A DNA stretch of 62,952 bases, counting the filler, from Stramenopiles sp. TOSAG23-6 (Eukaryota): NCBI GenBank assembly GCA_900128565.1. It is 11 parts of 11 records of this genome, joined end to end, with 100 filler letters (N's around TTAATTAATTAA, not from the genome) between each part and the next. Parts side by side here need not be neighbours in the genome. Positions count along the whole stretch, not along the records: positions 22,383 to 29,715 come from LT636573.1; 10 more parts are not named here. One strand, written 5' to 3'. The notes beneath the pieces were generated by a model. That model saw only the letters and a program-made list of their open reading frames with translations, made no database searches and was not told the DNA's origin. Positions 4,523-59,521 of this stretch are shown here, piece after piece (the stretch's first letter is position 1; each line of letters opens with the position of its first letter). A program made the position numbers and the translations under genes.

Positions 4523-6663
4523 ATGGGATTATGTGTCAGTAAGCAGCAAGACTGGCCAATAGGGACTCTCGATCATTATCAAAAAGACTCAGATTCTGTT
4601 GTAAAATTACTCTTATTGGGAGCAGGAGAATCTGGCAAGAGTACAATTTTCAAACAAATGCAAATATTACACAAGCCCGGTGCTTTTAAAGGTATTTTAT
4701 ATCATCAACAATTATACTCGTGTATTTTTTCGACCCTACATGAAGCATTTTATAATAACTCAAATATACTCTATTTTACTTATTTTTCTAAATACAGGAG
4801 CTTCCGCTAAAGCGTATGCCGATATTATTAGAGGAAATCTGCATAAAAACATGAAAGTTTTAGTCAAGGGTGCAGATAAGCTGGGTATCAAAGTGAATTC
4901 GGAAACAGCACTGAAGCAATATTTTTCAATTGATTCGAGGGGTGAATGGAGAAATGAATGGACAACAATGTTTAAGACGCTATGGAATGACTCTGGAATC
5001 CAAGAGGTGTATTCAAAACGTTCTCTACTTCAAGTGTCCGATTCTACAGCATATTATTTCTCTAATATTGATCGCATCGCATCTCCAGACTATTTGCCCA
5101 CTCAGCAGGATATTCTCCGCGCGCGGCATACGTTTTCATTATGAATTTTTTACTCATTTCGAACTAGTTTTTTTCATAGGAAATTTTGTACCTAACAAAC
5201 AAAATTAAATTATTGAAATATTTTTTTCAATGCATATAGGACTTCAGGAATTGTAGAAGAGCATTTTTTGGTCGGCGAGAATCAAAATGATTTCGCCATA
5301 TTTGATGTTGGTGGCCAGAGGAATGAACGTAGGAAATGTATGTTTTATTTTTTTCAATTTCTAATTTATTTATTTTTCATACGAAATTTTGTACCTAACA
5401 ATTTTTTTTTTTTTACGAAAAAAAAAAAAAAAATTTTTTTCACGAAACAGGGATTCATTGTTTTGATGACGTCACTGCGGTTATTTTTGTGGCTGCCTTG
5501 AGCGAATATGATGAAGTTCTCTATGAAGATCGACATCAAAACCGAATGGTTGAAGCAGTTCAACTTTTTAAAGAAATTGTAAATTGCAAATTTTTCTCTA
5601 AAACGTCAATGATGTATGTTTTATTTTTTTTCAAATTTGAATTTTGAATTTATTTTTTTTTTTATAAAAATTTTGTACCTAACAAATTTTCAAGATTTTT
5701 TTTTGAAATATTTTTTCCAAAATACATATTGTTTCTAAACAAACTTGATTTATTCCGAGAAAAAATTAAAACTGTCGATATAAAGCAACCCCTAGAACCA
5801 TGGAATAAGGACGAAGCCGAGGGAAATGTAATCGATGCTGAATTGGAAGGGACTCTTTCCCAGAGAAAAATTACACAGACTCGTCATAATGTGCGTTTTC
5901 AATAGACTTATATTTTTTATTTTTAAATACGAAATTTTNTACCNACACAAAAAAAAAAAAAAAAAAAAAAAAAAAACGTTTTTTTAATTTTTAATTTTTT
6001 TTTTCGCGCGAAATGTGGTGCCTAATTTTTTTTGTATCATTATTTTTCACAATACATGGTTTTTTTATGGATTATGACGGAGGTTGTGACGAAAAAGCTG
6101 GACTAAAATATTTTGAAAAATTATTCCGTAAACAAAACAAAAATCCAAACAGACAAATTTTCACGTATGCAACTACAGCAACGAATACAGAAAATATCAA
6201 ACATGTACGTTTTTTTTTCATACGAAATTTCATACCTAACGTTTTTTTTTTTCATCATTTCATCATTCATTTCAAATTTATTTATTTATTTTCAAAATAT
6301 TTCTTACTTTTAATTTTTTTTTTTAAGATATTGAGTTTTCTCATCATCATCATTCATTCATTTCAAATTTATTTTTTTCTTTTAATTTCAATTTGTTTTT
6401 TCAATTTCGATTTTTTTTTAATTTTTAACTAACAGATCAATCAAATTTTGAAATATCTTTTCACAGAACATGTATTTGAATCCGTACGTCAAACTTTAAC
6501 TGAAGATGATTTTAATGATATGTATGTTTTATTTTTTTAATTTCGAATTTATTTATTTTTCGTACGAAATTTTGTACCTAATAAATTTTAGTTTTTTTTT
6601 TGAAATATTTTTCCAAAATACATGGGTCTAGGAGGTACGGATAACCCCATGCACGCTTTGTAG
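4523..6663 (+). CDS. Heterotrimeric G protein alpha subunit, 8 exons
   Basis: MGLC lipidation start, [56 protein letters not shown], rebuilt across introns 4692-4797, 5128-5235, 5338-5450, 5614-5727, 5891-6057, 6205-6471, 6522-6623. Confidence 0.95.
5128..5235 (+). other. Non-canonical intron, AT...AT (G-alpha intron 2)
   Basis: ATACGTTTT start, GTACCTAAC motif, ends CAATGCAT; removal restores switch-I R-x-R-T-S-G. Confidence 0.75.
5614..5727 (+). other. Non-canonical intron, GT...AT (G-alpha intron 4)
   Basis: GTATGTTTT...GTACCTAAC...CCAAAATACAT; removal restores SMILFLNK. Confidence 0.9.
6205..6471 (+). other. Non-canonical intron, GT...AT (G-alpha intron 6), skips a CAG 5 nt upstream
   Basis: Removal restores NIKHVFESV; splicing at the CAG would frameshift. 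Confidence 0.85.
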
Positions 6664-7382: not shown

Positions 7383-7482
7383 NNNNNNNNNNNNNNNNNN
7401 NNNNNNNNNNNNNNNNNNNNNNNNNNTTAATTAATTAANNNNNNNNNNNNNNNNNNNNNNNNNNNNNNNNNNNNNNNNNNNN
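7383..7482. other. Artificial contig spacer
   Basis: N44-TTAATTAATTAA-N44 (stops in all six frames). Confidence 0.98.
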
Positions 7483-9420: not shown

Positions 9421-12400
9421 TATTACCACCACCACCACCACCACCACCACCAAAACTTAAAGTACGGTTTCTTTTTTTTTTATTTTTTTATTTTTTTTTA
9501 CATATTTATATTTTTTCAATAATGTTTTTTTTTCTAAATTTTATACCTAACCTAAAAAAATACAAGTTTAAATATACATTCAAAATATATATCTTGGAAC
9601 GTATTCGTCAAGCTCGCCAAAAGAATAAAAACAAGAACAATCCATCTAGTCCAAGAGCGCCTCCTAGAAAATTTGAAGATTTCCTTGTTAGTCCACTTAG
9701 GATTAAAAGGAATGATCCAATTAGGAGGGATGGTCCACTTAACGTTAGGCGACGTATAAACGTTAGTAGGGTTCCATCTTGTACGTTTTTATCATCCTGA
9801 AAAAAAATTTTTTTTTAAAAATTCATACGAAAAAAAATAGTACCTAACAAAAAACATTTTTAAATATATAATTCAATACTACATGTAATGGAACAAACGT
9901 CTCTTCAGAAGAAACTAAACCTGTAGCTGCGCACGTATCTAAATCTGCACCTGTTGTTGCTGCTGTTACTTCTGATAACGATAGTAGCTCTGATTCATCG
10001 GATTCCGATTCTAGCTCAGATGAAGAAGAAGAAAATAAACATGTAGCTGCGCATGTATCTACCAATGAAGAATTTACTTCTGAAAAAAAAAAAGTACGTT
10101 TTCATTTAAANTTTTTTTTTTANTTTCNTTNAAAANTTTTTTTTTTTAATTTTAATTGTACCAAATTCCATACCTAACCCTAAAAAACAATTCAAATATT
10201 TTTCAAATAAAATGACCTTGGCTATTATGAGAATGCAGCGCAAGATCTGGCAACTTCGCTGCGTGATAGTGGAGCATCGGATGAGCAGATCTTGCATGAA
10301 GTGGATATGGCAGTTGCGATAGCGATGTCGCAAGCGCAAGCTGTGCCGGACGCTGGGGGGCTCCCTAATGATTCGAATAGTTGTTTCATGAATGCTGTCA
10401 TGCAATTATTGTCGAGAACTAGAGAGCTTCGATCTGCCTATTTTGATAGACCATATCATCAAGGCGATCAAGACAATGAAGTGGTAAAACTATTAGTAAA
10501 AGAAGTTTCTGGGTACCTAAATGGTACAAATGAATCATGTTTAACACATATTCATGAAGTTATGAAACAACTTCAATTTATACTGTTTAAACAAGTTGGT
10601 GATCAAGAAGATGCTTTTGAGACGATTATGGAATTGAAAAAAAAATTGAGTATACCTATGAATGTTAATTTTGGCGTTATTCACCAACAGAAGACAACAG
10701 TAACTGTAATGAAAGTACTCAAAGATGTATGTTTTTTTTTTTCAATTTTGATTTTTTTTTCGTACGAAATTCTGTACCTAACAATTTTTTTTGAAATATT
10801 TTTCCAAAATACATGAAGACAAAAATGGCGCATTTGAATATAAATATGAAAATTACCCAAACGAATTATTGAAAGAACATTTTCTAGATATTCCAGTAGA
10901 AAAGATTCAACCAATTAATCTTGATGATCCTAATTCTAAATTGTATGAGTATGTAATTTTAGAAGGCGAAAAAATAAAATTTACATGGACTATATACAGG
11001 AAAGGCACTATCGAAAATTGTATTGATCCTCTAAATATTCCTTTGAATGACGACACGCCACAAAATTTTTCTTTTGAAAAATTTGTAAAAGATTCTGCAA
11101 AAGATAATCCCCGCAAATTATTAAGCGGTTTCGGATCTTTATTATCAGATGAAAATTGCGAAGAACTCAGATTTGATGATATATGTCTTAGAGAGATACG
11201 CATAGCTCAGCTGATACAAGATCTAGACAAGCTTAGTTTACAACTAGAAACTTTGTATAATCAATTTGAACCTTTGAATGGGAATGTATGTTTTAATTTT
11301 TTTTCAATTTTGAATTTTTTTTTCGTACGAAATTTTGTACCTAACAATTTTTTTTGAAATATTTTTCCAAAATACATATGAATTATTTGAAGAAAAGAAA
11401 ATGTTTTTTTTTGTGGAAAAAAGAAACCTTTGGTGGAAAAAACAACATATCTTTGGATGAACATTTGAATAATGTTCTAGAAGAAGTTGAAAAATTCATG
11501 ACAAGTGAAGCATTATATAATTCGGCGAATTTGGAGGGTTTGCAAACACAACGTGAGAATGTGGAAAAAAACGTTGATGAACTTTTAATAAAAATACATC
11601 GATTTTTTAGTATCACAGCTAATCTGAAAACAACAAAAGATGATGTTGTTAGACCGTTGGACTATTATATTGAAGATGGAGGAAGTTCGTTCGAATGTAG
11701 TTCATTGGGTATTTTAATCACTGTGGGACGTTTTAAAACAAAAACGAATGATGCTGGAGATTTCGTAGAAAAAAAAATACATACAAAGACAAAATTTGAT
11801 GATGTGCAAATATCATTAACATTTGATCAAAGTGGTATAAAAACACATGAACTTACAGCTTTTATTTCACATATCGGAAGTACTTCATCTGGTGGTCACT
11901 ATGTTGAGTATCAGAGAAAAGAAGCTAACGAAAATCCAACTGATGATTTTTACGCAAGATGTTATGATGATTCACGGGTAACTGAAGTGTCAAAGGAAGA
12001 GTTTTTAAAAAAAGCAGCAGAAGGGTATATTTTTTATTTACGCCCAATTCAGATTAACAATGTAAGTGGTGGCTATTTTTTTTTTACTTTTCATTTGCAA
12101 ATTTCAAATTTATTTTTCTAGTAAAAATTGTATTTCTAACAAAAAAAATATTTTTAATATTTTGCATCACTATATGAAGAAAAAACAAAATCAGATATTG
12201 ACCGTCCTGTACAAAACTCAAAGCTGAAAGCACTCAACCTTGTTATCAGAAAGGCACTTCCCGCTGCAGCTGCTGACACAAATGGAGCTAATGCAGGTGG
12301 TCATGTTGCTGCAGTCGCTGATACTGATAATGTTGCTATTGCTGTCGGAGATGCTGCCGGTGCTGCCGCTGACGGGGATGAAGAAAAAACAAAATCTGAT

Positions 12401-14648
12401 ATTGAGAAATTTGCGAATCGTCGTGATGCTCTTAGTGATGATATTAATGAATCGAAAGATAATGTATGTTTTGCTTGGTTGTTTTAAATTTTTCTAATAT
12501 TTCGTGATTTTTTTTTTCATACGAAATATTGTACCTAACAAAAAAAAACAATATTGAAATATATGTCTTTACAATAAATCAGATAAATATCGATGCTAAA
12601 CGTTTAAGTCGTCTTAAGACAAGAAAAACCCGAGAAAAACAAAGTCGTCCTAAGAAAAAAAAAACCCAAGAAAAACAAAGTCGTCCTAAGAAAAAAAAAC
12701 CCGAGAAAAACAAAGTCGTCGTAAGAAAAAAAAAACCCAAGAAAAACAAAGTCGTCGTAAGAAAAAAAAAAACCCAAGAAAAACACATTCGTCAGAAAGA
12801 AAAAAAGAAAATAAAAGAAGCATCAGTACCAGCAACACCAGCACCAGTGTAAGTGAATGACCGTTCATTTCAAATTTATAATTTACAATTTTTTTTTATA
12901 CAAAATTTTGTACCTAATAGAAAACCAAATTAATATTCTAACAAAATAACAGTATAAAAAATTCATCGTCATCGTCATCGTCCGCTTTTGAAAGTCCTTT
13001 GCCATTGCCCTCTTCAAAATCTTTCCATGTTGAAACTTCATCTTCTGATACTAATTATGATGAGACAAAGAAAACAAAGAAGAAAAAAACAAAAAAAAAA
13101 CCTGAAAACAAAATTGAAGATGAAGACCCTAGCTCTACGTAAGTGATCATTATTCATTCCAAATTTACAATTTTATTTTTTTTTTCATACGAAATTTTGT
13201 ACCTAACAAAAAAAAAATATATTTTAACAAAAACAACAGTGAAAATAGTACTGATACTTCCTCTTCTTCTTCTGGAACTTCGTCTGATGATAACCTTGTG
13301 GTTGAAGCAAATGGCGAAAAATATGTTTTGAATGACGATTTCAAGACAAATTTTACAGAAGACAGAGATGAGATAACTATCAAAACAGGAAATCTTAAAA
13401 ATAATTGGAAGAATTTCACGTATTACTACAATGTAGAATATTGTGAAAAGCGAAATAAATATAGATCAGTTTTTAGGAAAAATACGCATTTCGACAAATC
13501 CATAGACGCTGCTAATTTAAGTGATAAAATTGCAAGAGTTTATAATAGAAAAAACTCCAACAACAGTAACAACTCTGCCCGAAAAATTNACGATNGNAAA
13601 AAAAAANTTNAATNAAAGACCAAGAAAAAATAACCCTTATACTGGATGCACATACAATGAAGGAACTGGTACATATTCTTATAGAATACAATCTAGAGGA
13701 GAAACACCCATAACTAGACATGGTTTTGAAACTATTCAGGCTGCTGCCAAAGCTAGGGATAAGAAGGTAAAACGTCTTCAAACTAATAAACCAATTGGTA
13801 GTGTGAGACAAACCTTCAACTCCAAAGGTAATTTAATTAAATGCACACCTGCAACAACAGAAGAAAAAAGGTATGTTTCATTATGAATTTTTTACGATTT
13901 TTTTATACAACATTTTGAACCTAACAAATTACCCTTTTGACATATTTTTGTACATTGTGGAGTGCATACACGCACTGTTAGGCGAGTTAAGGCAGCACAA
14001 AAGTCTATAGATGATATAAATAAAGAGACTAATAGAAAAAAACAAAAGAAAAACAACAACAAAAAAAAAAAAAGTAACGCAATAAAAAAGGAAAACAAAA
14101 GAAGAAAAAAATATAGTTTTCGAGAACACCAAAAATGTCCGGTTCGAAAGCCTATAAATGAACGTGTTGATCTTCAAGCTGCGGTATGTCATGATAAGTG
14201 TTATAAAACTGTGACAAAATATTGTAGAGATATATGTCAATTGTGTCATGGTCATAAAGAATGGTACAAATATGACCATAATGACATTGACAATCAATTA
14301 GTGATGGAACACTACATAGAGCTGCGTCACTATTTTCCTATCCTTGAATATAGTGACAAAGCTTGTTGGGATGCTTTGTATTATAAAGGAATAGTAATAA
14401 TGTCCTCTAAAATGAATAGTTGGAAGCTAAACAAGTGTCGACCCAGACATCTTGTTCCCAGAAAAATCTTCATAAGGATGAGTCTAAAACAAAAAGCTTT
14501 GGAGTACTTTCGATTAAAGTACTATTTTGATAATAGAAATAAAGAGGGATTTGAAGTTCAAAACTATGAAGATGATTATGATAAAGACGGAAACATGAAG
14601 GATGAGTGTAAAGAGAAAATTAAGTCATTAATTAAGCATTTGGAATAA
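8236..14648 (+). CDS. Large ~15-exon gene: low-complexity N-terminus, UIM-like motif, USP catalytic domain, Lys-rich repeats, AP2-like domain(s)
   Basis: Cys box GLPNDSNSCFMNAVMQLL, QEDAFE, His box HIGSTSSGGHYV, YDDSRV; EQILHEVDMAVAIAMS; YTGCTY...YSYRI...GFETIQAAAKARD. Exons chain in frame through family introns (e.g. 8539-8633, 10727-10814, 11286-11377). Frames near 12650-12780, 13590-13615 and the last intron are uncertain. Confidence 0.7.
8742..9640 (+). repeat. Tandem duplication of a two-intron exon module (8742-9164 and 9205-9640)
   Basis: Near-identical intron and exon sequence in both copies, e.g. AATATAGATTAAAAATACAGGAGAAAAAAAC and CATTCAAAATATATATCTTGGAACG. Confidence 0.9.
12622..12790 (+). 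repeat. ~33-bp coding tandem repeat, about 5 copies
   Basis: Repeated AAAACCC(A/G)AGAAAAACAAAGTCGTC(C/G)TAAG. Confidence 0.85.
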
Positions 14649-14845: not shown

Positions 14846-14945
14846 NNNNNNNNNNNNNNNNNNNNNNNNNNNNNNNNNNNNNNNNNNNNTTAATTAATTA
14901 ANNNNNNNNNNNNNNNNNNNNNNNNNNNNNNNNNNNNNNNNNNNN
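14846..14945. other. Artificial contig spacer
   Basis: N44-TTAATTAATTAA-N44. Confidence 0.98.
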
Positions 14946-22282: not shown

Positions 22283-22382
22283 NNNNNNNNNNNNNNNNNN
22301 NNNNNNNNNNNNNNNNNNNNNNNNNNTTAATTAATTAANNNNNNNNNNNNNNNNNNNNNNNNNNNNNNNNNNNNNNNNNNNN
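22283..22382. other. Artificial contig spacer
   Basis: N44-TTAATTAATTAA-N44. Confidence 0.98.
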
Positions 22383-22399
22383 AAAATAACAATTGATGT

Positions 22400-24322
22400 T
22401 TAGAACGTAAAATAAATTGTGTACAAATATGTCTTGTATGTTTTGTGAAAAAATATTGAAAATTTTTTTTGAAAATTTGTTAGGTATAGAATTTTTTTAC
22501 CAAAAAAAAAAAAAAAAAAAAAATTGAAATTCATCAAGAAAACAAACATGGATATTTCGTGTAGTAAGTGAATGCCATTCTTGAAAAACATCTTTGTTGT
22601 AAAGAAAACATTGTATTTTGTGCTAATCGTTGAAATTGTTTGTTTACAAAATTATCTAATTTAAACTTGTTTTGACGAGCTATTGTTTCCGCATGATGAC
22701 GGGATTCTTCTCGAACTGCCATGATATGTATTTTGTAAAAATATTTCAAAAAAAAAATTCAGAATTTTTTATTAGGTACAAAATTTCGTATGAAAAAATA
22801 AAAAAAAAAATAAATAAAACATACATAAGCTTCTTTCTCTTCTTCTCCTTTTTTCATTTGGTTGGATAGAGCCGTATTTATAATGGCATTAACAGTATCA
22901 TCGGAATATTTGACTTTTGTAATAAAAGCATAACGAACCCATGAATGAAATGCACTTGACATTGTTTTTGATGTTTGATGATTTAATCTCATTTATTTTG
23001 GAAAAATATTTCAAAAAAAATCTTAAAAATTTTGTTAGGTACAAAATTTCGTATGAAAACCAAAAAAAAAAAAATGTAGACAAATTTTGAAATTTTGAAA
23101 AAAAAAAAACATACATTTCCCAACTACTAAACACTCGGGCTATTGTTTTTTTTCCTTTCTTCTTGTTTTCGTGTAATTTCATTTTCATAATTAGCACATT
23201 GTTGTTTCATTATTTTTTGTGTTTTTGTATATTCTCTCCAACATGTGCTGTGAAAAAATATATATATATTTTTTTTAATTGTTAGGTACAAAATTTCGTA
23301 TGAAAAAAAAAAAAATCTCAAAAAAAAAAAAAAAAAAACGTACTGACAAAAACCATACGAGTCAAACTAATTTGTTTTTGTACCCACAATCGTGTTGAAA
23401 ATCTCATCCGTGATAAGAGAGACCGTGAACGAAGTACAAACGTTTGCCATTTTTGCCATGATTGTATCATCGATGGTGTTTTTTTACGTAAAAGAGAGTT
23501 GATTAAGGTTAATGCCAAGATTTTGTTTTTATGTTGTGTTTGAAGTTTTGCAAAATTGAGTTGTTCTTCGACGCGTTTGGTTACAATTTTATGTCTTTTA
23601 TATGCAGAATATCCTGTATTGTGAAGATATATATATATATATATATTTGTATGAAAAAAATGGTAGACAATGTATTAGTTGTACAGACATATACAAATAA
23701 ACAAAAAAACAAATAAACTTTTAGAAGAAAATTTCAAAAAAAACATTTTTAGATTTTTTTTTTGAATTTGTTAGGTACAACATTTCGTATGAAAAAAAAA
23801 AAAAAAAAACGTACAAGTCCGCCATGCCGAGGATTTACTTTTCCAAATCGTTCGTGTGATTGTTTTTTCAATTAATTCTTTTGATCTCTGCCTTTCTTCA
23901 TTTTTTGCATTCGTCGTGATATTCACCCATTTCATCCATGCAAGCATATATCCACTTCTTGTCATTACATTTATTTTGGAAAAATATTTCAAAAAAACAA
24001 TTTTGAAAAAAATTGTTAGGTACAACATTTCGTACGAAAACCAAAAAAAAAATTAAAAATTATTTCGAAAAAAAAATTTTGAAAAAAGTTGTTAGGTACA
24101 AAATTTACTATAAAAAAAAATTAAAAATTATTTCGAAAAAAAAATTTTTGAAAAAAAAATAAAACATACATGAAGATATCTTCGAACTGTGATGATTGCT
24201 TTACGTTTTTTTTCTATAATTTTCTTCCATGATAACAATATTGTTTTTTTGAATATTTGTCGATGTGTTGAAAATAGTTTATTTACAATTTTTTGTTGTA
24301 TTGAACTACCTTTCATTTCCAT
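22400..24322 (-). CDS. Intron-rich gene fragment with Trp-periodic (Sfi1-like) repeats; possibly a pseudogene
   Basis: LLSWKK, AWMKW, SAWRT, SWQKW, FVSWRE, VFSSWE, AFHSWV across ~7 exons; one junction gives TGA. Confidence 0.45.
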
Positions 24323-24517
24323 GTATTTTGAAAAAATATTTCAAAAAAAAAAACTTAAATTTGTTAGGTACAAAATTGAAATATTCACTCATTTAAAGAA
24401 ATTAAATCAATATAAATTAATAAACATTTTGAAAAGTAAAAATATATCATCATAAATGACTATTTTATTTGCAAATAAAAATCAATCAGATGTAACGAAC
24501 AACACAAAACATTCATT

Positions 24518-27500
24518 TCAACATTCAAATTCAAAATTAGAATCAGAATCAGAATCAGAATCAGAATCATGTATTATAATTACATCTGATTCAGAGTAAT
24601 TTTTTGGTTTTGGGTTTGATGTTGATTTTTGTCTTTTTCGTGGTTCTTCTGGCGATGCTTCTATGGCTTTTCTTTTTTTGTTGTTTTCTTTTGGTTTTGG
24701 TTTTGATGTTGATTTTTGTCTTTTTTGTGGTTCTTCTGGCGATGCTTCTATGGCTTTTCTTTTTTTGTTGTTGTCATTTTGTTTGGACAGGTTTCTGTCT
24801 TTTCTAAATTTATCAATTTGTTTTATTTTATTCTTCATGCTTTTACTTCTAGGGTTTCGATAACGACCAAGTGCATCAAGGAACACTTGGTTGCCATTTT
24901 TAAATATTTGGGTCCAAGGTAATTCAATTCTGATAGTCGACCAATTTTTTCCATATTTTTCAGCATAGTCAACTATGTCGCTGTAATTTTCGATCGACCA
25001 TTTGTGATGACGTGGTACTTCTACTAATTTAAGATTGCGAGCCTTCTTAGCCAAAGCTCTATCAGACTTTTCCTTCAGGAAAGGATATTTCGTATTTTTT
25101 TTAAAATTCTTCCAATTATCTTTTGTACATGGTTTGAATTCCAGTCTACATAGTTCATTTTTGAAACAATTTATCTGTTTTGGAATCCAACGTTTACCTG
25201 GATTAATGTCATGGTAATCGTTAATGCGATTTCTAATTGATTTTCCATTATGTTTAGGTAATTGTATTTTCGCTAGCTTTTTCAATTTAGGCCAATTCAG
25301 CATTGAATTAGATTTGGTACATTTTTTCACTAAAGTAAAGAGTATTTTATCCTTTTCTGCGGTCCAATTTCTGTTCAAATCTTGTCGTGTTTTTATTGCA
25401 TTTAATGTATCAGCATCGTATTTTTCCTTGGTGTCTTCTTCTTTTTCTTTTTGTATTCGTTCCCTAAGACGTTCCCTAAGAATTTCGTAGGTCTTGCTCT
25501 TAATGGACTTCACTGTACGTTCATTGATGTTACCATCTGCATTAAAAGCCGGAATTATTTTTTTCCAATTACGTTTGTTGCCCATTGTATGCGATTCCAC
25601 CGCAGACATTAGTTTCGATTTTTCAGTATCAGTCCAAATATCTTCTTTATTGCTTTTCTTGACTAGACCTAATTTACTTTGTTCGATGTGTGTTAGTATA
25701 TTGTCGTGTTTGTGTCGTAAATACTTCCAATGGTTTTTGTCGTTTACATCCCAGGTTTTGAGATGACCTTTTTCTTGCATTTCCATCAAGATATACCGCC
25801 ATTTTTTTTGACGTTTAGCAGGAAGATGAGAATATTTTTGTTCAAATTCACGAATGACATTTCTTAATACTATTGTATCACTGTCGTTGAATTTCTCTAC
25901 CACGGCGGGAGCTGTGGCGGGAGCAGCGGCAGCAGCAGCATTGGCAGCGGTGAAAGCTGAATACTTAGCATATAAATGATTTTGCATCATTCTATACAAT
26001 TCAAACGGGTTCTGCGGATATTCTTCCTTGATTACGATAGTATTTAAAGCAGTGTCAAACCGTATCGGAGACATATCTTCAGTGAATGCAGGGTCAAAAT
26101 AATCTGTTTTGTAATCATGTAACCCTGACCCAATTAATCCGAACAGCAGACAACTACAGCATAAGTAGAATTGTCCATTCAGAGTCAAATCATGCAAGCT
26201 CACTGGTTTGAAGTGATCCCACTGTCCACTTTTGACACCTCTACGTTGACTTTCATATCGTTGGAAAATATAAAAGTCGAACGCATTCACTTGCACACCA
26301 TCGACTTTCATACCCATTGTATAAAGGTTGGCATAAGTTCGAAATCTCTCCTCCTCCATTGCTTGTCCAAATGGAAGGTCTTGTATTTCCCATACAGGTA
26401 TAGAACTATCAACGCATTGTTTCATTCTCGCTTTTTTAGCACGAATTAGGACTTTATTTGATAAAAACGTTGTATAATCGGATTTCATCTTTATTTTTTG
26501 TTTTTCAGACAAGTTTTTCCACCATTTTTTGTAATCGTATAATGTGCTTTTGTCTTTTGGTGAAAGTCCAGGAATCTGAGGTATTTTATCACCACCATCA
26601 ATATTACATATACTGTACGAATCATGGCGTCCCTGTGGCAGATTAACTACTTGGGCAGAACCAGATTGACCAGTATCAGATGTATGTCGTGTTTCTTGTT
26701 TTTGATTATTTTTATCTTGTGTTTCTTGTTTTTGATTATTTTTATCTTGTGTTTGTTGTATTTGATCAGATACATTTCGTGTTTCTTGTTTTTGATTATT
26801 TCTTAATACCTGTGTTGTGAAAGATACATGGATGAAAAAGTTAGATACGATTAAACGAAATAAAAATCAGCATGCATACATTATATATATATCACTTACA
26901 TGTAGTGTGAAAAATATATTTTTATTAAATTTTTTAGGTACAAAATTTCGTATGAAAAAAAATCCTCAAAATTTAAAATTATTCAACTAGTTTTAAATCG
27001 TTAGATACGAAATTTCGTAGCAAAAAAAAATTAACCATGAAAACATACAATAGTTTGATCATCTCTGATAATATTCCCACAATTTATTAATTCTACCTGG
27101 ATACGACAGATCATCCAATCTTTTTGTTCACAATTAGAATTTAATCCTAATTGTTTACAAGCTTCTTTAAGTTCTGCTTCATTTGCATCATTCAAAACTG
27201 ATGTTACAGATGTCAAAGTTCCGCGGAGATTCCAGAGGTCTTTTGGCCTACTACTACTACTAGTATGATTCGCGACATGTAATTGTTTTTTTGAGATTTG
27301 ATCAGAAGATTTAGAAGAATTAATCATCGGTTGACACTCAATTTCAGTACTTACTTTAAAATTAAATATACTTTTAGGACTCGTATATTTTGTCAGAAAT
27401 ATTTTTTTTCAAAAAAAAAAACTGTTAGGTACAAAATTTTCTACGAAAAAATAACAAACAAATTCAAAATTTTTTTTTCGAAAAAAAACTGTTAGGTACA

Positions 27501-29325
27501 AAATTTCCTACGAAAAATTAAGAAAAAAATTGAAAACGTACATCAGAGTCGGGTACATCAGAGTCGGGTTTATTTTCCAATCGCTGTATTGTGAAAAAAA
27601 ATAAATTTTTAAACAGTTTAGTACAATATTTTTGTCAAATAATTAATAATTGAAGTGAATGATGCAAAAACAAACTAAAAAAAATTAAATTCATTATGAA
27701 AACGTACATTAAGAGGTGTTTTCGGATCTGTTGAAGAGGAACCATTTGCAATTATTTGAGAACAATTTCCCGCAGCAAGACTACTTGCTACGTTGTACGT
27801 ACGATTTTGACAGACACTTTGACGAGGTCTCAATTTAGAATTTATATGTCGACGAATTGTAGTAAGATTACGTGTAAATGCTTCGCGATCATCAAAACGT
27901 AGTCGAATAGAAATATGAGAGTTATCTTCACTAAGTAGAGTGCTTAGATTTGATAGAATAGGATTTGATAACGAAAAGTCGTTATGACGAAGTATTATAT
28001 CAATCTCTCTATTTTCTTTAGACCATTCAAGATATGCAATATCATGTGTTGTGAAAAAATACAAAATCACAAAAACAATCGTTAGGTACGAAATTCCGTA
28101 CGAAAAAAAAATTAAAATTAAAATTGAAAAAAAAAATAAACCATACATCAAAATAATTTAGAGCGGGTAGTCCATTCCTTAGTTCAAAACGACAAGAACT
28201 TGACGGTACAAAATACAAATCAAAAGTACCAAAATGAGCATGACATTCTTCAATTGTAACGTCTTCTTGACAATTTTTTGATNCAAATATCGGAGTTGTT
28301 GAGTTTTGTGTGCAAATGTTTACAGCATTACAATGTACAACAGAAATATCATTTTTTGAAATATTGGTATTATGTACGAAATCATAAATACCACATTCCT
28401 TATTTTGGATTTCATCTTTTTGCGAATCATATAATTTGACAATTTGAGAACCAGGATTGAATTCGATAGATTGACCAGCAGTATCCATATTCATTGAATT
28501 TTGAAATAAACATAAAATATCTTTTTTTTGGCATTTACTGGATTGTCCTTTAGTCATTGGAAACATCTGAAGACAAAGAGTACAAATGAGAAACGCTACT
28601 CGAAATTGGAGGGTCACATTTGTAGTAGAGAATAGTAAGGAACTCAAGTTAATCAATAAGTTGCTACATTCCACGTGAGTCTCTGATCTTTGTTTGGCTA
28701 TTTCGTTGGTATTGTATATAGATCCTACTTTGAGAAATGTATTTATATCAATCGTAATACCACCTGTAGTCTCAGCATAAAGTTGAAGTTCCGAATTGAT
28801 TTGCTCATGCTGGGATAAAGTTGTATGTTCGGTGATCTTCTCTGTATGTTCAGCCTCCATTTTTGATTTGGAGAGAAAACATAAACCATTTGTAAGTAGT
28901 CTGGCGAGTTCAGTCACAACATCGCGATCATGGCTTTGTCTCACATCCAAGTGAAGGTATGAAAAAATTTCGCTGACAGTCAAGATTGCCGAAGCAACTT
29001 GATTGTTAGGCTTTCCACCCGAAGCAACTTGATTGTTAGGCTTTCTACAAAGAATTATTTTGAGAAATTCGACAAGTTCATCAACGAGACCACGTAGTCC
29101 ATTTACAACAAAACGCTTGGTATTTTTACCAACTTTAATAGAATCAATCATTGATTGTACGATCTCTCTTCCTAATTTGGCAATCCATGGGATGTCACGT
29201 TCTGCGTTGTCAAGAGATGAAACAGACTCTGTTATTTCTCTGAGAGCCAAAGTAGCAGCAACAACGTTAGCTACGGCCTCTCTTTTGGCTGCTTCTTCTC
29301 TTGGATTATGAAACCATTCAGACAT
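24518..29325 (-). CDS. Multi-exon nuclear protein: unknown N-terminal domain, SAP-like motif, large last exon with several Myb/SANT repeats
   Basis: NEAELKEACKQLGLNSNCEQKDWMICRI; WTDTEKSKLMSAV...NWKKI, WTAEKDKILF...NWPKL, WSIENYSDIV...NWSTI. The ORF stays open from 26809 to 24518 and is in phase with the upstream exon ending at 27049. Confidence 0.7.
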
Positions 29326-29715
29326 TTTAAAATTTAAAAGAAACGCTATTTTCTTATTATCTCTTGTTAGACTAGTCACACCAATCGATCAAAAGTATAG
29401 AAAAAATTTGACATTCGAAAAATTTCTGTAATATCTTGGACTTATTATTATTTTTCGTGTACTGTAGTAATTTTGCCATTTGTTTTTCGTGTTTTGTGCG
29501 ATGATAGACTACAATCGAATCTAAATCTCAAGAGACTGTGTCTACCCTGAACTAGAAGTAATCTTTTACTCTCTAGATGAATGTTTTATAGTTCAGTATT
29601 CTTCACAGTTAAACATATGCAGGGGTAACCTATTGTTTATATTACGTTATCATTCCCTTAATAGAATGAGCAACGTTTCTCCAACACCATTCTGTGATCG
29701 ATTTGGACCACTTAT

Positions 29716-29815
29716 NNNNNNNNNNNNNNNNNNNNNNNNNNNNNNNNNNNNNNNNNNNNTTAATTAATTAANNNNNNNNNNNNNNNNNNNNNNNNNNNNN
29801 NNNNNNNNNNNNNNN
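29716..29815. other. Artificial contig spacer
   Basis: N44-TTAATTAATTAA-N44. Confidence 0.98.
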
Positions 29816-30352: not shown

Positions 30353-33031
30353 ATGTCAAATACTTTGTTAGAACGATGCCGTAGAACATTACAGGATAGA
30401 GATGAGGGGTGTAAGCTTTTATCTGAGGAATTGATGGAAGTACCAGAGACTCAAAAAGATAAAGTGAAGCAGGAGCTTCGTGTCGCTGCGTACATTTCGT
30501 TTATTCAGAAACAGTGTAGTGATCTATTATCTCTTTTCAAGGACAAAGATGGATTCCGACGAGCTGAAATCAAAACCATGTCCAAGGGTGATATTATAGA
30601 ACAATTTTATGCTCGTTATGGTGTCAATTCTTGTTATCATAAGAAACATCCAAGTATAGCGCCTGAGCAGTCTCTCCAAGATCGTCTGAACGTACTCGTT
30701 AACAAGTCTTTCATGAAGTTTTCAGGTGAAGAAAAGTATGGAAAATACTTGGATTTACATCAATTCTATACTCGTTTCTTAAATATGTCGGAGTTTGACC
30801 AAACAAAGGATTTTTTTCTATCAAAAAGTGACAAGGGGAGAAAAACGAAAAAGCATAAATCGTCAAACCCAACTTCTGAAGAAACTAAGCCAACTTCTGA
30901 ACAAACAAACTTGAATAAAAAAGACACCACACTTCAAGATGATGAAAATCAGAAAGATAGTCATGATGATTCAAATGTACAGAATAGAAAAGAAATTTCA
31001 TCAACAATATCCAAATCAAAAACAACAAAAACAACAAAAACAATTTCGTATCGTCAATTTCTCGATTTATTTTATATATTTAATCATGTAAATGTGTGCT
31101 ATCGTACGGGACATACTGCTACGACACGAAATCTTGTATATGCACAATATATTCATGATTTACGATATTATTTGGAACATTTTATTCAACGTGCTCAACC
31201 TGTCCTTGGTAATGATGCGAAAGATGCAATCAAACAATGGGAAAATGAATTTTCAAAAAAATGGGAAAAACAGGAAAATAACCCTAACCCTAACCCGTCT
31301 CTTAACGTTGAAATGTTACAAAAAAAAGATGGATTTATAAATGTAAACAAAATATCTACATATGATGAATTATCAGCAATGGAGACAAAAGCGATAAGAG
31401 CAGCTTTGTCCGTATATGGATTAAAAAAAGGAGGTACTCACAAACAGTGTGTACGTTTTTCAGTATGAATTTCATTTTTTTTTTCATAGTAAATTTTGTA
31501 CCTAACAATTTCAAAAAAAAAATTTGAAATTTTTTTCATAAAATTTTTTTTTCATAGTAAATTTTGTACCTAACAAAAAAAAAGAAATTTGAAATTTTTT
31601 TTCATAAAAATTTTTTTCATAAAATTTTTTTTTCATAAGAAATTTTGTANCTNACNAAAAAAAAAANTTTNAAATNTTTTTTCACAAATACATGTTGATC
31701 GATTTTGGTCCATTCGAAATTTGCATTACAGTCAATGGCCTATTGATATTTTTCAAACTTCACCAAATGCTACTACAAATGCATCAAAGTCTAATTCAAG
31801 GAAGCGAAAACGAAGACGTAAAAATAACCCTAACCCTAATACACAAAATATCAAAAATACAAAAAATGGTACAAAAAATGGTACAAAAAATACAAAAAAT
31901 GTAAAAAATGTAAAAAATTCAGCTTTTGAAATTGCACAAAATGAATATATTATTCATTTACTTGCAACAGAAATGCATCAAGAAAAACTTCGAGCAACAC
32001 GAAATCAAGTAGAGAAAAAGTTAACATTAACTTATAATGTAGGTTTTCATTTGTAGTACTTGAATTTTTTTTTTTTTTCAAAAATTTTTTTTTTTCAAAA
32101 ATTGTTTTTTTTCAAAAATTTTTTCATAGTAAATTTTGTACCTAACAATTTTTTTTCAAAATTTTTTCAAAATATTTTTGTACACTATAGGAATTGATAT
32201 CTCGACATGAAGATGAAGAGGATGCTGAACGTTTAGCAAATAAACTTGTTCAATCCGATGATGAAGACGATGAAATCATTTATAATCCTCTGAATCTTCC
32301 TTTGGGATGGGATGGAAAACCAATTCCTTTTTGGTTATATGTATGGTTTCATCATGAATTTATGAATTTATGAATTTAATTTTTTTTTTTTTTTTTTTTT
32401 TTCGTACGAAATTCCGTAATTAACAAAAACAAAATGTCAAATATTTTTTTACAATATATAAATTACATGGTTTGGGTATTGAATATAAATGTGAAATTTG
32501 TGGAAATGAAAGTTATTGGGGTCGAAGGGCTTTTGATAGACACTTTCAAGAATGGAAACATTCTCATGGTATGTACGTTTTCAATTTATCAATTTAAAAA
32601 AAAAAAATTCAAAATTTTTTTCAAAATTTTTTTTCAAATTTTTTTTCAAAATGTTTTTTTTTAAATGTATACTAACAAAAGAAACAACTAAAAAATATTT
32701 CCCACAAGACATGCGATGTCTAGGTATACCAAATACAAAACATTTTCATGATATTACAGTTATTGAAGATGCTGTGGCCCTTCATCAAAAATTATCTGCC
32801 TCTTTGGCTAAAGATTCATATAGCAAAACTATTGAATATGTATGTTTTATTTTTTTTTTCTTTACCAAAAAAAAAAAAAATCGAATTTTTTTTTTCATAG
32901 TAAATTTTGTACCTAACATTTTTTTTCAAAATTTTTTTTTGAAATATTTTTCCAAAATACATGAAGATTCAGAAGGAAATGTATTGGATCAAAAAACATA
33001 TCGCGATTTGGAACGACAAGGGTTACTCTAA
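30353..33031 (+). CDS. SF3A3: Splicing factor 3A subunit 3 (SF3a60/Prp9), 6 exons
   Basis: [75 protein letters not shown]; introns 31451-31693, 32039-32190, 32341-32459, 32573-32712, 32840-32962. Confidence 0.95.
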
Positions 33032-37144: not shown

Positions 37145-37244
37145 NNNNNNNNNNNNNNNNNNNNNNNNNNNNNNNNNNNNNNNNNNNNTTAATTAATTAA
37201 NNNNNNNNNNNNNNNNNNNNNNNNNNNNNNNNNNNNNNNNNNNN
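37145..37244. other. Artificial contig spacer
   Basis: N44-TTAATTAATTAA-N44. Confidence 0.98.
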
Positions 37245-38968: not shown

Positions 38969-40600
38969 TTATTCTTTTTTTTCTACAATTTCAAGTTGAT
39001 ACCCTGGAAATGAAGGACTTTCGTATCCTCCATTCCACTGTACATGCACTGTTCCATCCGAATTATTGGATACAACTACACCAATATTTGGACATGTACT
39101 ATTTTCACCAATACTTGGAGGTGCAATATTTTCGATTTTATATTCGTCTCGCAAGGAACATTTTTTACCGACAAGAGATTCGCCTTCCAAACCACATATT
39201 GTGAAAAAATATTTTTAGAAAAAAAAATCATTAGGTACGAAATTTCGTACGAAAAAATAAATTCGAAATTGGTAAAACATAAAACAAACACGTTCCCAGA
39301 GTAAAGACAAATATCCAAATATAGGAACGTCTATACCTCCAATCTTTTTTACTCTGAAAGATCTCGTCGAATTCACAGATGGATGATTACCTAAACACCA
39401 AGTAACAGCATCTGCAAACCCAGGAGGGTTATCTATCATTAAATTATGCCCACTATCTTCAACTCTAGCAATCATAATATTTTTTATTGTTTTTTTTTGA
39501 GCTAGCTTCTTAGACTCACGAACGGTGGAACATTGGTGCCTCAATTGCAAAGCAGAATTTATATCCATCCAGTCTCGAGTTCCATATACAAAAGATATTG
39601 TATTATTTGCAAAAGGTAACTTTAACTTAGGTATGCGATCAATTAGAGGTCTGAAGGCGTAAGCACCTGGTAATAATAGTGTTGAATGACATGAACCACC
39701 TACACTGTAAAGTATTGAAATATATCAAGAAGATTTCATATGAATAAAGATTGTTTTTTTCTAAATGAATTAGTATAATTTTGTTATATATATATATATA
39801 TATATATATTACGAAGGCTCTCCATTACACCAATTGTATAACCAGTAATTCTGAAGTAATTTGTGAGGTGTCCAAGAGGATTGCTTAAATCGTGCTTGAG
39901 TATATTTACCTAGCCAATAGTTCTTGAAAGGCAAATCAAATGGACCATAGCCCCTTGACCAGAGACTTCGAACAGAACGGATAAGCATATTTCGCATAGA
40001 CCAAGTTCTGCTTGTTTGAAAAATCTTCAGATTTTCAGGTGCACGTGGTAGACCAACAGGTGATATTAATATCAAATCTTTTACATTTTGTCCGTGTTTT
40101 TCTGCATAGGCTACTGCAATGTACCCACCGATACTATGACCAACAATTGAAATATGCTCAACATTGAGAGATTTACGCAAGCCTTCAACCCCTGATACAA
40201 AGAAGTTCTCAATTTGATCAATATCTGCACTTGATCCATACCCAGAATCGTACTTCTCCCTAGTGGAGAGACCACAGCCTAAACTATCCACACTATATAC
40301 ATCGCACTTTAGTTTGTGAGAAATCAGTGGTGCTGAAGTTGCGTATATTCCAGTACCACTACCATAACCATGTAAAAGAAATACAGGTACATTGCCAGCT
40401 TGTACGTTTGAGCTACGATAACGTACAGTATGCATTTTCTGCTCACTACCTTTTTCTGACACCTGAATTTCAAAATCTACTGGTTCTACACTTACTGACA
40501 CATTATCTTCCCGACGTAATCGTATCCACTGTCTCGCCCATGAAAGGCCCCAACTAACAAGATCTTGTTCAGCATCGCGAGCATTTTTTTCATTCGACAT
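38969..40600 (-). CDS. Alpha/beta hydrolase, ABHD4/5 (CGI-58)-like
   Basis: LLHGYGSG, GHSIGG, LILISPVG, HNLMIDNP (HX4D); introns 39705-39812 (GT-AG) and 39196-39291 (GT-AT). Confidence 0.88.
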
Positions 40601-43247: not shown

Positions 43248-44537
43248 ATGGAACATTTGTCGACGGAGACTAAAGATATAGTGGAACCATGGGTAAATTG
43301 TTTTATTCCATCGGAGGATAAACTTCTTCCAATTGTACTGTCAGTGCCTCATGGAGGAAGTTTAAAACCAAACTCTGTATTAGACAGAACTTCTGGCTGT
43401 CAACATCCAGACGAGGGAACAACGGAGCTTTCAAGATCAATATTTATGGCTCTATGTAAGAACAATAAGCGGAATTTTCAACCATGTCTTGTGCAACATT
43501 GTCTTCACCGATCAAAAATTGACCCCAACAGAGACTTGGATTTTGCTGTTGACGTAAAGTCTTCTTCTGTCGTAGAGTCTTGGCATCTATACCATGCAAA
43601 TATTAGACGAGCTCTTCTTTTATCAGTTAAAATTCATGGTTTTGCTTGCTTAGTTGATGTTCATGGGCAAGATCATAGAAATGATACGACTGAACTAGGC
43701 TATGGCTTGACGAGTTTCGAGTTGGTTCTTTCTGACGAAAACCTTCAAAATCGCTGGGTTACTAACTCTAACTCTACACCTCATCACTTTAACTCTGAAG
43801 GTCATGTTGTGCAATCAAGGAATGGAATGTGTTTTTCACTACATAGTCTTTTACACAATGGAATTTCAGTACCCGAAATTGTTCGTGGAGAATTTTCCTT
43901 GGGAGCTTTACTAGAGAAAAATGGATTTAAGTGTACACCAAGTATGTTGTATTTTTTTTAATTTCAAAGTTTTTTTTCATACGAAATGTTGTACCTAACA
44001 AAAAAAATCAAAACATCAAAAAAAAATATTTTTTTACACTACATGCCCACGTCTGCCGAAACCTGTATCACTATCAGATGTAATTGTTTCATTAACACAT
44101 GAACTTGATAATGAGATTATCGACGGTGGCAATTTAGAAACCCTTTTAACTCGTCATGGTTTTGCCCCTAGTTTGAATTTTGCGAAACTTTTACGGAATA
44201 ATATTATGAATGACATTAGTAGTGTTGAATCATTCTCAAATAGTAATATAGTTGATACTATATCCCACGGAAATAATTCGTTAGGTACGAAAGTGGGTAC
44301 AAAACCAAAACATTCAATTACGAATTTGACAAATACCACTCCTCCGAGTGTATCCCCATTTGACTATTTCAAAGGCATTTACTTCTGGGGTGGATATACA
44401 TTACAAGCCTATACTTGTCGCAACGCTATACCAGGAAATGTTGGCCCTCTTACTGAGTCAGATTGGACTCTAAAAAACCCTAACCTTAACCCCAATCAAT
44501 TACAATCTGTTCATACTACAAGAAATAGTTTTGAGAG

Positions 44538-44570: not shown

Positions 44571-44670
44571 NNNNNNNNNNNNNNNNNNNNNNNNNNNNNN
44601 NNNNNNNNNNNNNNTTAATTAATTAANNNNNNNNNNNNNNNNNNNNNNNNNNNNNNNNNNNNNNNNNNNN
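44571..44670. other. Artificial contig spacer
   Basis: N44-TTAATTAATTAA-N44. Confidence 0.98.
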
Positions 44671-46298: not shown

Positions 46299-46706
46299 AA
46301 CACATGTGAAAAAAAAAAAAAAAAAAACAGGATTTTTCGTACGAAATTTCGTACCTAACGAAAAAAAAAATCGACGTCTAGTCTATCCTTTTTTTTTTGT
46401 GATTATTTGATAAATAAACAACACTCTAGAGAATGTAGAGACATTATTTTATACTATGTATATATATACATGATACACAAGGAAAATAGCAACATGAAAA
46501 GAATGTATATCAACATGAAAAAAATATATATTTTATTACACTTCATTTAAAAGTACAACAAGGATAATCAACCCTAACCCTAGTACAAAGACATTCATTG
46601 TAGGGCTAGTGGCCTCTTTTTGAGTACTCATTTTGTGTAATGAGTTCATTGTGTTACTTTATATGTTTTAGATATAATAGATTTTTTCTATGTTACATTC
46701 TCCAAA

Positions 46707-51996: not shown

Positions 51997-52096
51997 NNNN
52001 NNNNNNNNNNNNNNNNNNNNNNNNNNNNNNNNNNNNNNNNTTAATTAATTAANNNNNNNNNNNNNNNNNNNNNNNNNNNNNNNNNNNNNNNNNNNN
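51997..52096. other. Artificial contig spacer
   Basis: N44-TTAATTAATTAA-N44. Confidence 0.98.
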
Positions 52097-59421: not shown

Positions 59422-59521
59422 NNNNNNNNNNNNNNNNNNNNNNNNNNNNNNNNNNNNNNNNNNNNTTAATTAATTAANNNNNNNNNNNNNNNNNNNNNNN
59501 NNNNNNNNNNNNNNNNNNNNN
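59422..59521. other. Artificial contig spacer
   Basis: N44-TTAATTAATTAA-N44. Confidence 0.98.

What the first reader, a model, noticed from the sequence alone, without database searches (positions are those of the whole stretch)
26810..27048. Back-to-back introns with a zero-length exon (AT|GT ratchet point)
Seen (minus strand): a complete family intron GTATGTTTT…CACTACAT (27048-26900) is followed immediately by GTAAGT…CTAAC…CACAG (26899-26810). Removing both joins DQTI|VLRNNQ in frame into the Myb exon. Established: recursive splicing normally uses AG|GT ratchet points. Inference: the element inserted exactly at the 5' splice site of an older intron, creating a non-canonical recursive site.
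Basis: partly seen in the sequence, partly recalled or inferred. Interest (0 to 1): 0.72.

Follow-up and report, generated by a model that had tools for sequence, protein, structure and literature searches.

The report
Two introns joined end to end
A copy of a repeated intron that ends in AT instead of AG lies directly against the start of an ordinary intron in a Myb-type gene of a marine protist; both must be removed, but only RNA data could show whether this takes one cut or two.

Summary
On the minus strand, 27048-26900 (149 nt) is a full copy of the window's abundant intron family: GTATGT start, two palindromic branch cores, family 3' end ...CACTACAT. It abuts 26899-26810 (90 nt), a GTAAGT...CTAAC...CACAG intron that does not match the family. 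Removing both joins exon 1 to the Myb exon in phase 0. Removing only one leaves stop codons.

The AT end is not peculiar to this locus. 25 other family copies in the window end in [CTA]AT| with open frames or homology on both sides. Junctions in a G-alpha gene and an SF3A3 gene match homologues at the residue level. A public CDS for that SF3A3 gene, built only with GT-AG introns, loses a conserved zinc-finger segment.

Family 3' ends are followed by GTA in 5 of 25 other copies, so an intron donor is a natural landing place.

Insertion at the donor of an older intron is the best reading of origin (about 0.65-0.7). Two-step ("recursive") removal is plausible but untested, because a single GT-AG excision of 239 nt gives the same mRNA. 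No RNA run, relative or empty site could be found. This is a new variant of a known kind and of moderate interest.

The parts
27049..27327 (-). Exon 1 coding part (ATG 27327-27325; 93 codons, ends ...DDQTI, phase 0)
   Evidence: No Pfam family.
26900..27048 (-). Unit 1: 149-nt family intron copy, GTATGT...CACTACAT (GT...AT), with an internal duplication
   Evidence: two profile matches, E 1.5e-08 and 6.9e-10, reaching both model ends. (stop after 5 codons on read-through).
27000..27016 (-). Core 1 of unit 1 (GAAATTTCGTATCTAAC): palindromic module plus branch-like CTAAC
26933..26949 (-). Core 2 of unit 1 (GAAATTTTGTACCTAAA), ending 33 nt before the CAT| end. It pairs with core 1 in the predicted fold.
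   Evidence: MFE -27.9 kcal/mol, z -4.02, 0 of 200 shuffles as stable.
26899..26900 (-). Junction: last T of unit 1 (26900) and first G of unit 2 (26899), with no exon base between (CAT|GTAAGT)
26810..26899 (-). Unit 2: 90-nt GTAAGT...CACAG intron, not a recognisable family member
   Evidence: (E 0.85). (no stable fold, z +0.88). (stop after 10 codons if kept).
26840..26850 (-). Branch-like motif TCGTATCTAAC of unit 2, ending 30 nt before the AG
24521..26809 (-). Exon 2 (763 codons, starts VLRNNQ; stop codon at 24518-24520)
25487..25636 (-). Myb_DNA-binding domain (residues 392-441 of the exon 2 translation)
   Evidence: PF00249, E 2.8e-09. Coordinates worked out from the residue numbers.
26828..26830 (-). 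Alternative in-frame CAT| acceptor inside unit 2. It would add 6 codons and ends only 12 nt after the branch motif.
   Evidence: donor 27048 to 26828, in frame, at least 300 codons open.

Best explanation
A mobile or formerly mobile intron family of this genome carries its own donor (GTAYGT), a palindromic module ending in a branch motif (..GTACCTAAC) and its own 3' module ending in CAT|. One copy of it landed at the donor of a pre-existing 90-nt GT-AG intron in a Myb-domain gene.

The result is two complete splicing units with no exon between them. Shown: the structure, the need to remove both units, the family membership of unit 1 only, and the routine use of AT-ending acceptors by this family elsewhere in the window.

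Inferred: each site pairs with its nearest partner, as expected for short introns with strong sites, so the units are excised separately. That is 27048 with 26900, and 26899 with 26810. If unit 1 goes first, exon 1 is joined to GTAAGT and re-spliced, which is a zero-length-exon ratchet with AT|GT. If unit 2 goes first, the CAT| end of unit 1 comes to lie on exon 2 and is spliced next. Some transcripts may lose all 239 nt in one GT-AG step. All routes give the same mRNA.
For: Structure and frames. Unit 1 matches the family profile to its first and last positions, and unit 2 does not.

AT-ending acceptors are real and used on their own. 25 other copies end in [CTA]AT|. For 8 of them the upstream exon does not end in AT, so an AT-AC reading is impossible, and all 8 have at least 38 open codons on both sides.

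Residue-level homology supports the junctions. G-alpha exon d aligns to Go-alpha residues 212-263, and the next exon starts LFLNKLD, keeping the NKxD box in register. The Pfam G-alpha profile numbering is continuous across 5132-5239. In SF3A3, introns 32341-32459, 32573-32712 and 32840-32962 read as GT...AT give WLY|KLHGL.., HSHG-M|RC and EY|EDSEGN, as in homologue P0122.

The inner sites look as good as used ones. The last 12 nt of unit 1 match 11 of 12 with the frame-supported intron 43942-44044. GTAAGT starts four other frame-compatible introns (8539, 12062, 12849, 13139). The distances from branch motif to 3' end, 33 and 30 nt, are typical.

On the landing place: GTA follows the family 3' end in 5 of 25 other copies against 1.7% expected. 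AT precedes family donors in 17 of 26, so ...CAT|GTAAGT looks like a normal exon-intron junction of this genome.
Against: The outer GT-AG pair is canonical and its length is within the observed range (243 and 267 nt). Multi-core family introns such as 31451-31693 must skip internal branch-plus-CAT look-alikes, so the machinery can read across them.

Core 2 has CCTAAA instead of CCTAAC. It is predicted to be paired with core 1 in a stable hairpin, which could hide the branch site of unit 1 and favour a single step.

No empty-site allele or orthologue was found to prove the insertion. The direct repeats at the junctions are no longer than the family consensus alone gives, so there is no copy-specific target-site duplication.
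Confidence: 0.5

Rival explanations
1. It is one ordinary 239-nt GT-AG intron. The donor at 27048 pairs with the branch site and AG of unit 2. The inner CAT|GTAAGT junction is never used and the family copy is just passenger sequence inside an intron.
For: The outer sites are canonical and in frame. Introns of 243 and 267 nt exist in the window. Other multi-core copies are read across internal look-alike sites. The predicted hairpin of unit 1 (z -4.02) would loop out its interior and partly cover core 2, whose branch motif is also altered (CCTAAA).
Against: Both inner sites are full-strength by the standards of this genome. With two strong donors competing for one acceptor, and two acceptors for one donor, the nearest partners are usually chosen (established splice-site competition, recalled). 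One other copy with a CCTAAA core, 50916-50798, is frame-supported as an intron.
Confidence: 0.3
2. The pair arose inside the family, not by insertion at an older unrelated intron. Unit 2 would be a decayed family copy, and the arrangement a tandem duplication or two successive family insertions.
For: Multi-core and composite copies are common: 3 cores in 31451-31693, 2 in 24169-23969 and 5891-6057, and 2 in unit 1 itself. Unit 2 has a family-like branch motif TCGTATCTAAC, and its end TTTCACAACACAG resembles the end of 28146-28044 (TTCACAACACAT). Introns 12849-12952 and 13139-13239 combine a GTAAGTGA start with a family core.
Against: The family profile finds nothing in unit 2 beyond 11 nt (E 0.85). 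The other composite copies have no preserved inner splice sites.
Confidence: 0.12
3. The gene model is wrong. Exon 1 does not belong to the Myb ORF, or another acceptor such as CAT| at 26828 is the one used.
For: Exon 1 has no Pfam family and the Myb ORF has no detectable homologue. The 26828 acceptor is in frame.
Against: Exon 1 (ATG plus 93 codons) ends exactly at a family donor in phase 0, and exon 2 opens in phase 0 at an AG. The exon 2 frame has no ATG near its start. The 26828 site ends only 12 nt after the branch motif, against about 29-46 nt for the family acceptors that remain visible in the truncated output.
Confidence: 0.06

Closest known systems
Zero-nucleotide-exon ratchet points of Drosophila recursive splicing (Duff et al., bioRxiv 10.1101/006163; abstract and opening text read)
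   Same: A 3' splice site directly juxtaposed to a 5' splice site with no exon between. After the first splice the upstream exon is joined to a regenerated donor.
   Different: Those sites are AG/GT, lie in very long introns, are conserved, and are proven by junction reads and lariats. Here the junction is AT/GT and the whole unit is 239 nt. It was made by a repeat insertion, and nothing is known at the RNA level.
[D] stwintrons and the Lipomyces starkeyi complex intervening sequence with abutting donors (PMC7138796; abstract read)
   Same: Two U2-type units occupy one intron position in a short-intron organism. The abstract reports excision either in one standard reaction or in two consecutive ones, which is exactly the alternative left open here.
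   Different: In a [D] stwintron the inner intron interrupts the donor of the outer one, so the order is forced. Here the upstream unit ends just before an intact donor, so either order or a single step works. Here one unit is a repeat-family copy with an AT end.
Introner elements / MITE-derived introns (Micromonas, Aureococcus; review PMC11282704, passages read)
   Same: Many near-identical short introns in unrelated genes, carrying their own splice signals, with short terminal inverted repeats (ATGTAT...ATACAT when the upstream exon ends in AT).
   Different: Those use GT/GC-AG ends and show clear target-site duplications. Here the 3' end is CAT| and no copy-specific duplication could be shown.
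3'AT (YAY) introns of Fritillariid larvaceans (PMC13326754, section 21 read)
   Same: A 3' end in a YAY triplet (here mostly CAT), often with the same kind of triplet just upstream of the donor, and a U-rich tract kept. The section gives 3'AT in 34-44% of introns in two species.
   Different: The major Fritillaria classes start with AG, whereas these start with GTAYGT and keep a yeast-like branch motif. The gene content of the window (class I fumarase, FGase, WRKY19-type fingers) and the source label of a 99%-identical protein point to a protist, not a tunicate.

Membership tests
Zero-nucleotide-exon recursive splice site (ratchet point) | 3' splice site and 5' splice site juxtaposed with no exon base between | tested here: met
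   CAT at 26902-26900 is followed by GTAAGT at 26899-26894. The 3' module matches the family profile to its last position.
Zero-nucleotide-exon recursive splice site (ratchet point) | AG/GT at the junction | tested here: not met
   The junction is AT/GT.
Zero-nucleotide-exon recursive splice site (ratchet point) | Junction reads from the upstream exon to the ratchet point, and two lariats | not testable with these tools
Zero-nucleotide-exon recursive splice site (ratchet point) | Evolutionary conservation of the site | not testable with these tools
   No relatives were found. The 3 metagenome matches to the core are chance matches in unrelated sequence.
[D] stwintron | The inner intron interrupts the donor hexamer of the outer intron, so the outer donor exists only after the first splice | tested here: not met
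   GTAAGT at 26899-26894 is intact in the unspliced sequence, and unit 1 ends before its first G.
[D] stwintron | Two consecutive splicing reactions shown by an RNA intermediate | not testable with these tools
   No RNA data.
Introner / MITE-like intron family | Many similar copies as introns of unrelated genes | tested here: met
   34 core matches against 0.02 expected and 60 looser matches. There are 26 curated GT...AT copies, in G-alpha, UCH, SF3A3, cyclase, WD40 and other genes.
Introner / MITE-like intron family | Target-site duplication specific to each copy | tested here: inconclusive
   The mean direct repeat at the junctions is 3.17 nt in 24 copies. Pairing the 5' side of one copy with the 3' side of another gives 3.09, and 1386 of 5000 shuffles reach the observed value. 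The repeat is therefore the consensus AT|GTA..CAT|G.
Introner / MITE-like intron family | Presence/absence of copies between strains or species | not testable with these tools
   No whole genome is held and no relatives were found.
U12-type AT-AC introns | ATATCC donor and a TCCTTAAC branch site close to the 3' end | tested here: not met
   Donors are GTAYGT. In the part's truncated output that remains visible, the family acceptors lie about 29-46 nt after the end of the branch motif. 9 of 26 copies lack the upstream AT needed for an AT-AC reading. The U12 consensus is recalled.
Fritillaria-type non-canonical introns | YAY triplet as the last three bases | tested here: met
   The ends are CAT in 21, TAT in 3 and AAT in 2 of 26 copies, so 24 of 26 are YAY. 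The rule comes from PMC13326754.
Fritillaria-type non-canonical introns | Non-GT donors (AG/AC and AG/AT as the main classes) in a larvacean tunicate | tested here: not met
   All 26 copies start with GT. The gene content and the source label point to a protist.

The most novel reading that the evidence does not exclude
In this marine protist a mobile intron family is routinely spliced at CAT| acceptors. At 26900/26899 one copy, by landing on a donor, has made a constitutive zero-length-exon ratchet with AT|GT. This would be the first recursive splice site created by an introner insertion and the first that does not use AG. It would also be a natural proof that an AT acceptor can be recognised with no exon behind it.
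Probability: 0.4. Interest if true: 0.65.

Novelty: new variant of a known kind. Interest (0 to 1): 0.45.

Why it matters
If the two units are removed one after the other, the locus shows how insertion of an intron-like transposon at an existing donor builds compound introns and recursive sites. It would also show that an AT acceptor works without any downstream exon.

The wider point has practical weight. This genome uses GT...AT introns on a large scale, and a gene model restricted to GT-AG gets proteins wrong. The public CDS P0121 for the SF3A3 gene of this window replaces a 19-residue zinc-finger segment with 3 residues and alters two further junctions. Gene counts and apparent gene decay in such genomes could be distorted in the same way. 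That last sentence is inference.

Tried and rejected

Whole genome: none is held.

Relatives of the Myb ORF: none among 7127 candidates. None in metagenome contigs, where 278 pattern matches gave no confirmed relative.

Family core as an exact 19-mer in metagenome contigs: 3 loci, all chance matches in unrelated sequence of 38-44% GC.

Earlier findings of this scan: nothing for this genome or sequence. The two word hits concern Ostreococcus and do not bear on this.

Rfam: no match in the window.

Copy-specific target-site duplication: not supported.

AT-AC reading of the family: possible for the 17 copies preceded by AT, but impossible for 9 of 26, unit 1 included. I therefore read all copies as GT...AT.

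U12-type: rejected on donor and branch position.

Tunicate origin, prompted by the Fritillaria 3'AT introns: rejected on gene content and source label.

Taxon from uS5 hits and from the protein atlas: uninformative.

Homology check of the type-ii junction 31451-31693: only suggestive. tblastn (E cutoff 50) listed no match of P0122's 'ERAHRLFS' region (residues about 280-300) to the exon that follows the intron, and Pfam found nothing in that exon on its own.

PDB search with the exon after 5727: no hit at E 0.01. PDB search with the exon after 31693: no hit.

In print: searches for recursive splicing with introners, for abutting or tandem introns, and for MAST with introns, introner or GT-AT listed no paper describing GT...AT introns in stramenopiles or a non-AG ratchet point. 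In the passages of PMC5778133 that I saw, 'splice' occurs 0 times. Supplements were not opened.

Full report
**What the window is.** The 62,952 bases are about ten short contigs joined by linkers of N44-TTAATTAATTAA-N44. The contig with the finding spans 22383-29715. GC is about 30%. The only public runs that hold the stretch are DNA runs, and a small share sits in a seawater metagenome. Pfam content includes class I fumarase, N-formylglutamate amidohydrolase, WRKY19-type fingers, an adenylate/guanylate cyclase domain, G-alpha, ATG9 and SF3A3. A protein 99% identical to the SF3A3 ORF is held in EukProt under the label 'GSMAST32.ASY1.ANO1.2132.1 assembled CDS'. Together these point to a marine protist, probably a MAST-type stramenopile judging by that label. 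I did not establish which assembly the window belongs to, and I do not claim one.

**The observation.** One search confirms every coordinate. Exon 1 (ATG at 27327, 93 codons) ends ...DDQTI at 27049. Unit 1 is 27048-26900 (149 nt, GTATGT...CACTACAT). Unit 2 is 26899-26810 (90 nt, GTAAGT...TCGTATCTAAC...CACAG). Exon 2 starts VLRNNQ at 26809 and runs 763 codons with a Myb domain. Read-through from exon 1 stops after 5 codons. Removing unit 1 alone stops after 10 codons. Removing both is in phase 0.

**The family.**
- A 21-nt degenerate core occurs 34 times against 0.02 expected, and a looser 17-mer occurs 60 times.
- An alignment of 20 copies gives the plan. It starts with GTAYGTTTT and a T-rich stretch. 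Then comes a palindromic module (CGTACGAAATTTYGTAC) running into CCTAAC, then a T-rich stretch. It ends in GAAATATTTTTCCAAAATACAT or TTTTCACAAYACAT.
- I curated 26 copies that end in [CTA]AT|, made up of the finding and 25 others.
- 20 of the 25 have at least 29 open codons upstream and at least 38 downstream in one phase.
- Four of the remaining five (6205-6471, 6522-6623, 32573-32712, 32840-32962) are followed by short last or near-last exons, or were put in the wrong phase by the script. These rest on homology.
- The fifth (22279-22186) touches a contig end.

**Are the AT ends real?** In the G-alpha gene (4600-6660), the exon before 5614 aligns to Go-alpha 212-263. After removal of 5614-5727 the text continues M, I (split codon), LFLNKLD, which keeps the NKxD box in register (the box is textbook knowledge, recalled). 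Exon 6058-6204 aligns to G-alpha chains up to its residue 48. The next two junctions give ..NIKH|VFESV.. and ..ND-M|GL.., which fit the conserved C-terminus as I recall it. At 6205-6471 a CAG lying 5 nt before the CAT is not the one that keeps the frame.

In the SF3A3 gene, homologue P0122 reads WLYKLHGLNITYSCEICGN, HAHGMRC and EYEDSQGN. The window gives [26 protein letters not shown] and EY|EDSEGN only if 32341-32459, 32573-32712 and 32840-32962 are removed as GT...AT. The public CDS P0121 uses GT-AG pairs instead, often 4 nt away (GTAT|GTTTT...CATGAAG|). It reads WLYVCYWGRR, HSHDMRC and EYVYSEGN.

All the junctions above are preceded by AT, so they could also be read as AT...AC. But 9 of 26 copies, unit 1 among them, lack that AT. 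The 8 others of this kind have open frames on both sides. One of them (31451-31693) gives [13 protein letters not shown].. against P0122's GGTLEERAHRLFS.. with the same spacing. This is suggestive only, because tblastn listed no match of that region of P0122 to the exon after the intron. GT...AT is therefore the one reading that fits all copies.

**Family copies with AG ends also exist.** 5338-5450 is proven by RRK-W|IHCF. 2734-2627 is another. In 5132-5239 a damaged 5' end is bypassed by the GT 4 nt further in. The Pfam G-alpha profile numbering runs 167, [168, 169], 170 across that junction.

**The two units compared.** Unit 1 matches the family profile twice. Bases 4-58 match model positions 4-71, and bases 77-149 match model positions 20-103 (E 1.5e-08 and 6.9e-10). 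It therefore has both family ends and a duplicated core. Its two palindromic cores pair in a stable predicted hairpin (-27.9 kcal/mol, z -4.02, 0 of 200 shuffles). Unit 2 matches only at its 11-nt branch motif (E 0.85) and has no stable fold (z +0.88). Its size, GTAAGT donor and 30-nt distance from branch motif to AG are ordinary for this window.

**Origin.** The junction context of the family is AT|GTA...CAT|G. AT precedes the donor in 17 of 26 copies, G follows the end in 20 of 26, and GTA follows in 6 of 26 (5 of 25 without the finding, against 1.7% expected, p 5.7e-05). A donor preceded by T is therefore the kind of place where these copies are found. This pattern cannot be told apart from a fixed target motif or from selection for splice context. 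The repeat at the junctions is no longer in true pairs than in swapped pairs (3.17 against 3.09 nt). Among the 26 copies, this is the only one whose 3' end is followed by another intron rather than by an exon. Insertion at the donor of an older intron is the simplest reading, at about 0.65-0.7. A decayed second family copy is the alternative.

**How it is removed.** Three routes give the same mRNA.
- Unit 1 first, then a re-splice from the regenerated donor.
- Unit 2 first, then unit 1, whose CAT| then lies on exon 2.
- One GT-AG step of 239 nt.

I favour separate excision, at about 0.5-0.55. Both inner sites are as good as sites that are used elsewhere: the last 12 nt of unit 1 match 43942-44044 at 11 of 12 positions, and GTAAGT starts four other introns. 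Nearest strong partners usually pair in short-intron genomes (recalled principle).

Several points count against it. Core 2 reads CCTAAA and is predicted to be buried in the hairpin. Other multi-core copies are read across inner look-alike sites. Introns of 243 and 267 nt exist. Nothing could be tested at the RNA level.

**Comparison with known systems.** The junction has the layout of a Drosophila zero-nucleotide ratchet point, but it is AT/GT, lies in a tiny intron and has no RNA proof. It resembles the Lipomyces starkeyi complex intron, which is excised either in one reaction or in two, but it is not a [D] stwintron because the outer donor is intact. The family behaves like introners, but with an AT end. 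That end recalls the YAY 3' ends of Fritillariid larvaceans, although the donors are GT and the organism is a protist. My searches listed no paper on GT...AT introns in stramenopiles or on a non-AG ratchet point. Supplements were not opened.

**Verdict.** The locus is a new variant of a known kind (compound or recursive intron), of moderate interest in itself (0.45). The more striking fact is the one it rests on: a large GT...AT intron family that a public GT-AG-only gene model misses.

Noticed in passing
window 30353-33028 (+), SF3A3 gene: The public CDS P0121 (99% identical over shared exons) is built only with GT-AG introns. It replaces the 19 residues [19 protein letters not shown] with VCY, reads HSHDMRC and EYVYSEGN where homologue P0122 has HAHGMRC and EYEDSQGN, and skips 31694-31801. 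A GT...AT model restores all of these.
   Followed up: yes
window 10727-10814, 12062-12175, 32042-32211, 32840-32962 (+): Many family copies offer a canonical GT-AG pair shifted by 4 nt on both sides (GTAT|GTTTT ... CAT GAAG|). It has the same length and stays in frame, so a GT-AG-only predictor finds a plausible but wrong junction.
   Followed up: partly
window 6205-6471 (+) and 23343-23243 (-): A CAG lies 5 nt upstream of the CAT| that keeps the frame (..CACAGAACAT|..CACAGCACAT|). If the frames are right, the AG is passed over in favour of AT.
   Followed up: partly
window 5127-5240 (+), G-alpha gene: A family copy whose first bases read ATACGTTTTC instead of GTACGTTTTC. The GT 4 nt further in serves as donor with a TATAG| end. 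The Pfam G-alpha profile numbering is continuous across this junction.
   Followed up: yes
family core, e.g. window 46338-46358 (+), 39231-39251 (-): The conserved core is a near-perfect palindrome (CGTACGAAATTTCGTAC) running straight into the branch motif CCTAAC. Single copies fold it into a small hairpin, and two cores in one intron pair with each other. Its role is unknown.
   Followed up: partly
window 7383-7482, 14846-14945, 22283-22382, 29716-29815, 37145-37244, 44571-44670, 51997-52096, 59422-59521, 60599-60698, 61776-61875: Pairs of 44 N around TTAATTAATTAA. The window is a chain of separate contigs (eight of about 7.4 kb, then shorter ones), so features must not be read across these points.
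   Followed up: yes
window 27371-27541 (-): A two-core family copy lies upstream of the ATG of the same Myb gene. It starts GTACGT at 27541, with possible ends near 27401 or 27371. It is probably a 5'-UTR intron, but its 3' end is unclear.
   Followed up: no
window 26683-26801 (-): Exon 2 opens with three imperfect 30-nt repeats coding ..NNQKQETQDK...
   Followed up: no
window 5891-6057 (+): A composite family intron. A first copy runs into a long A run, then comes a second copy whose 5' end lacks the GT (..ACGTTTTTTTAATTT..). Tandem family units inside one intron are therefore common, but usually without preserved inner splice sites.
   Followed up: partly
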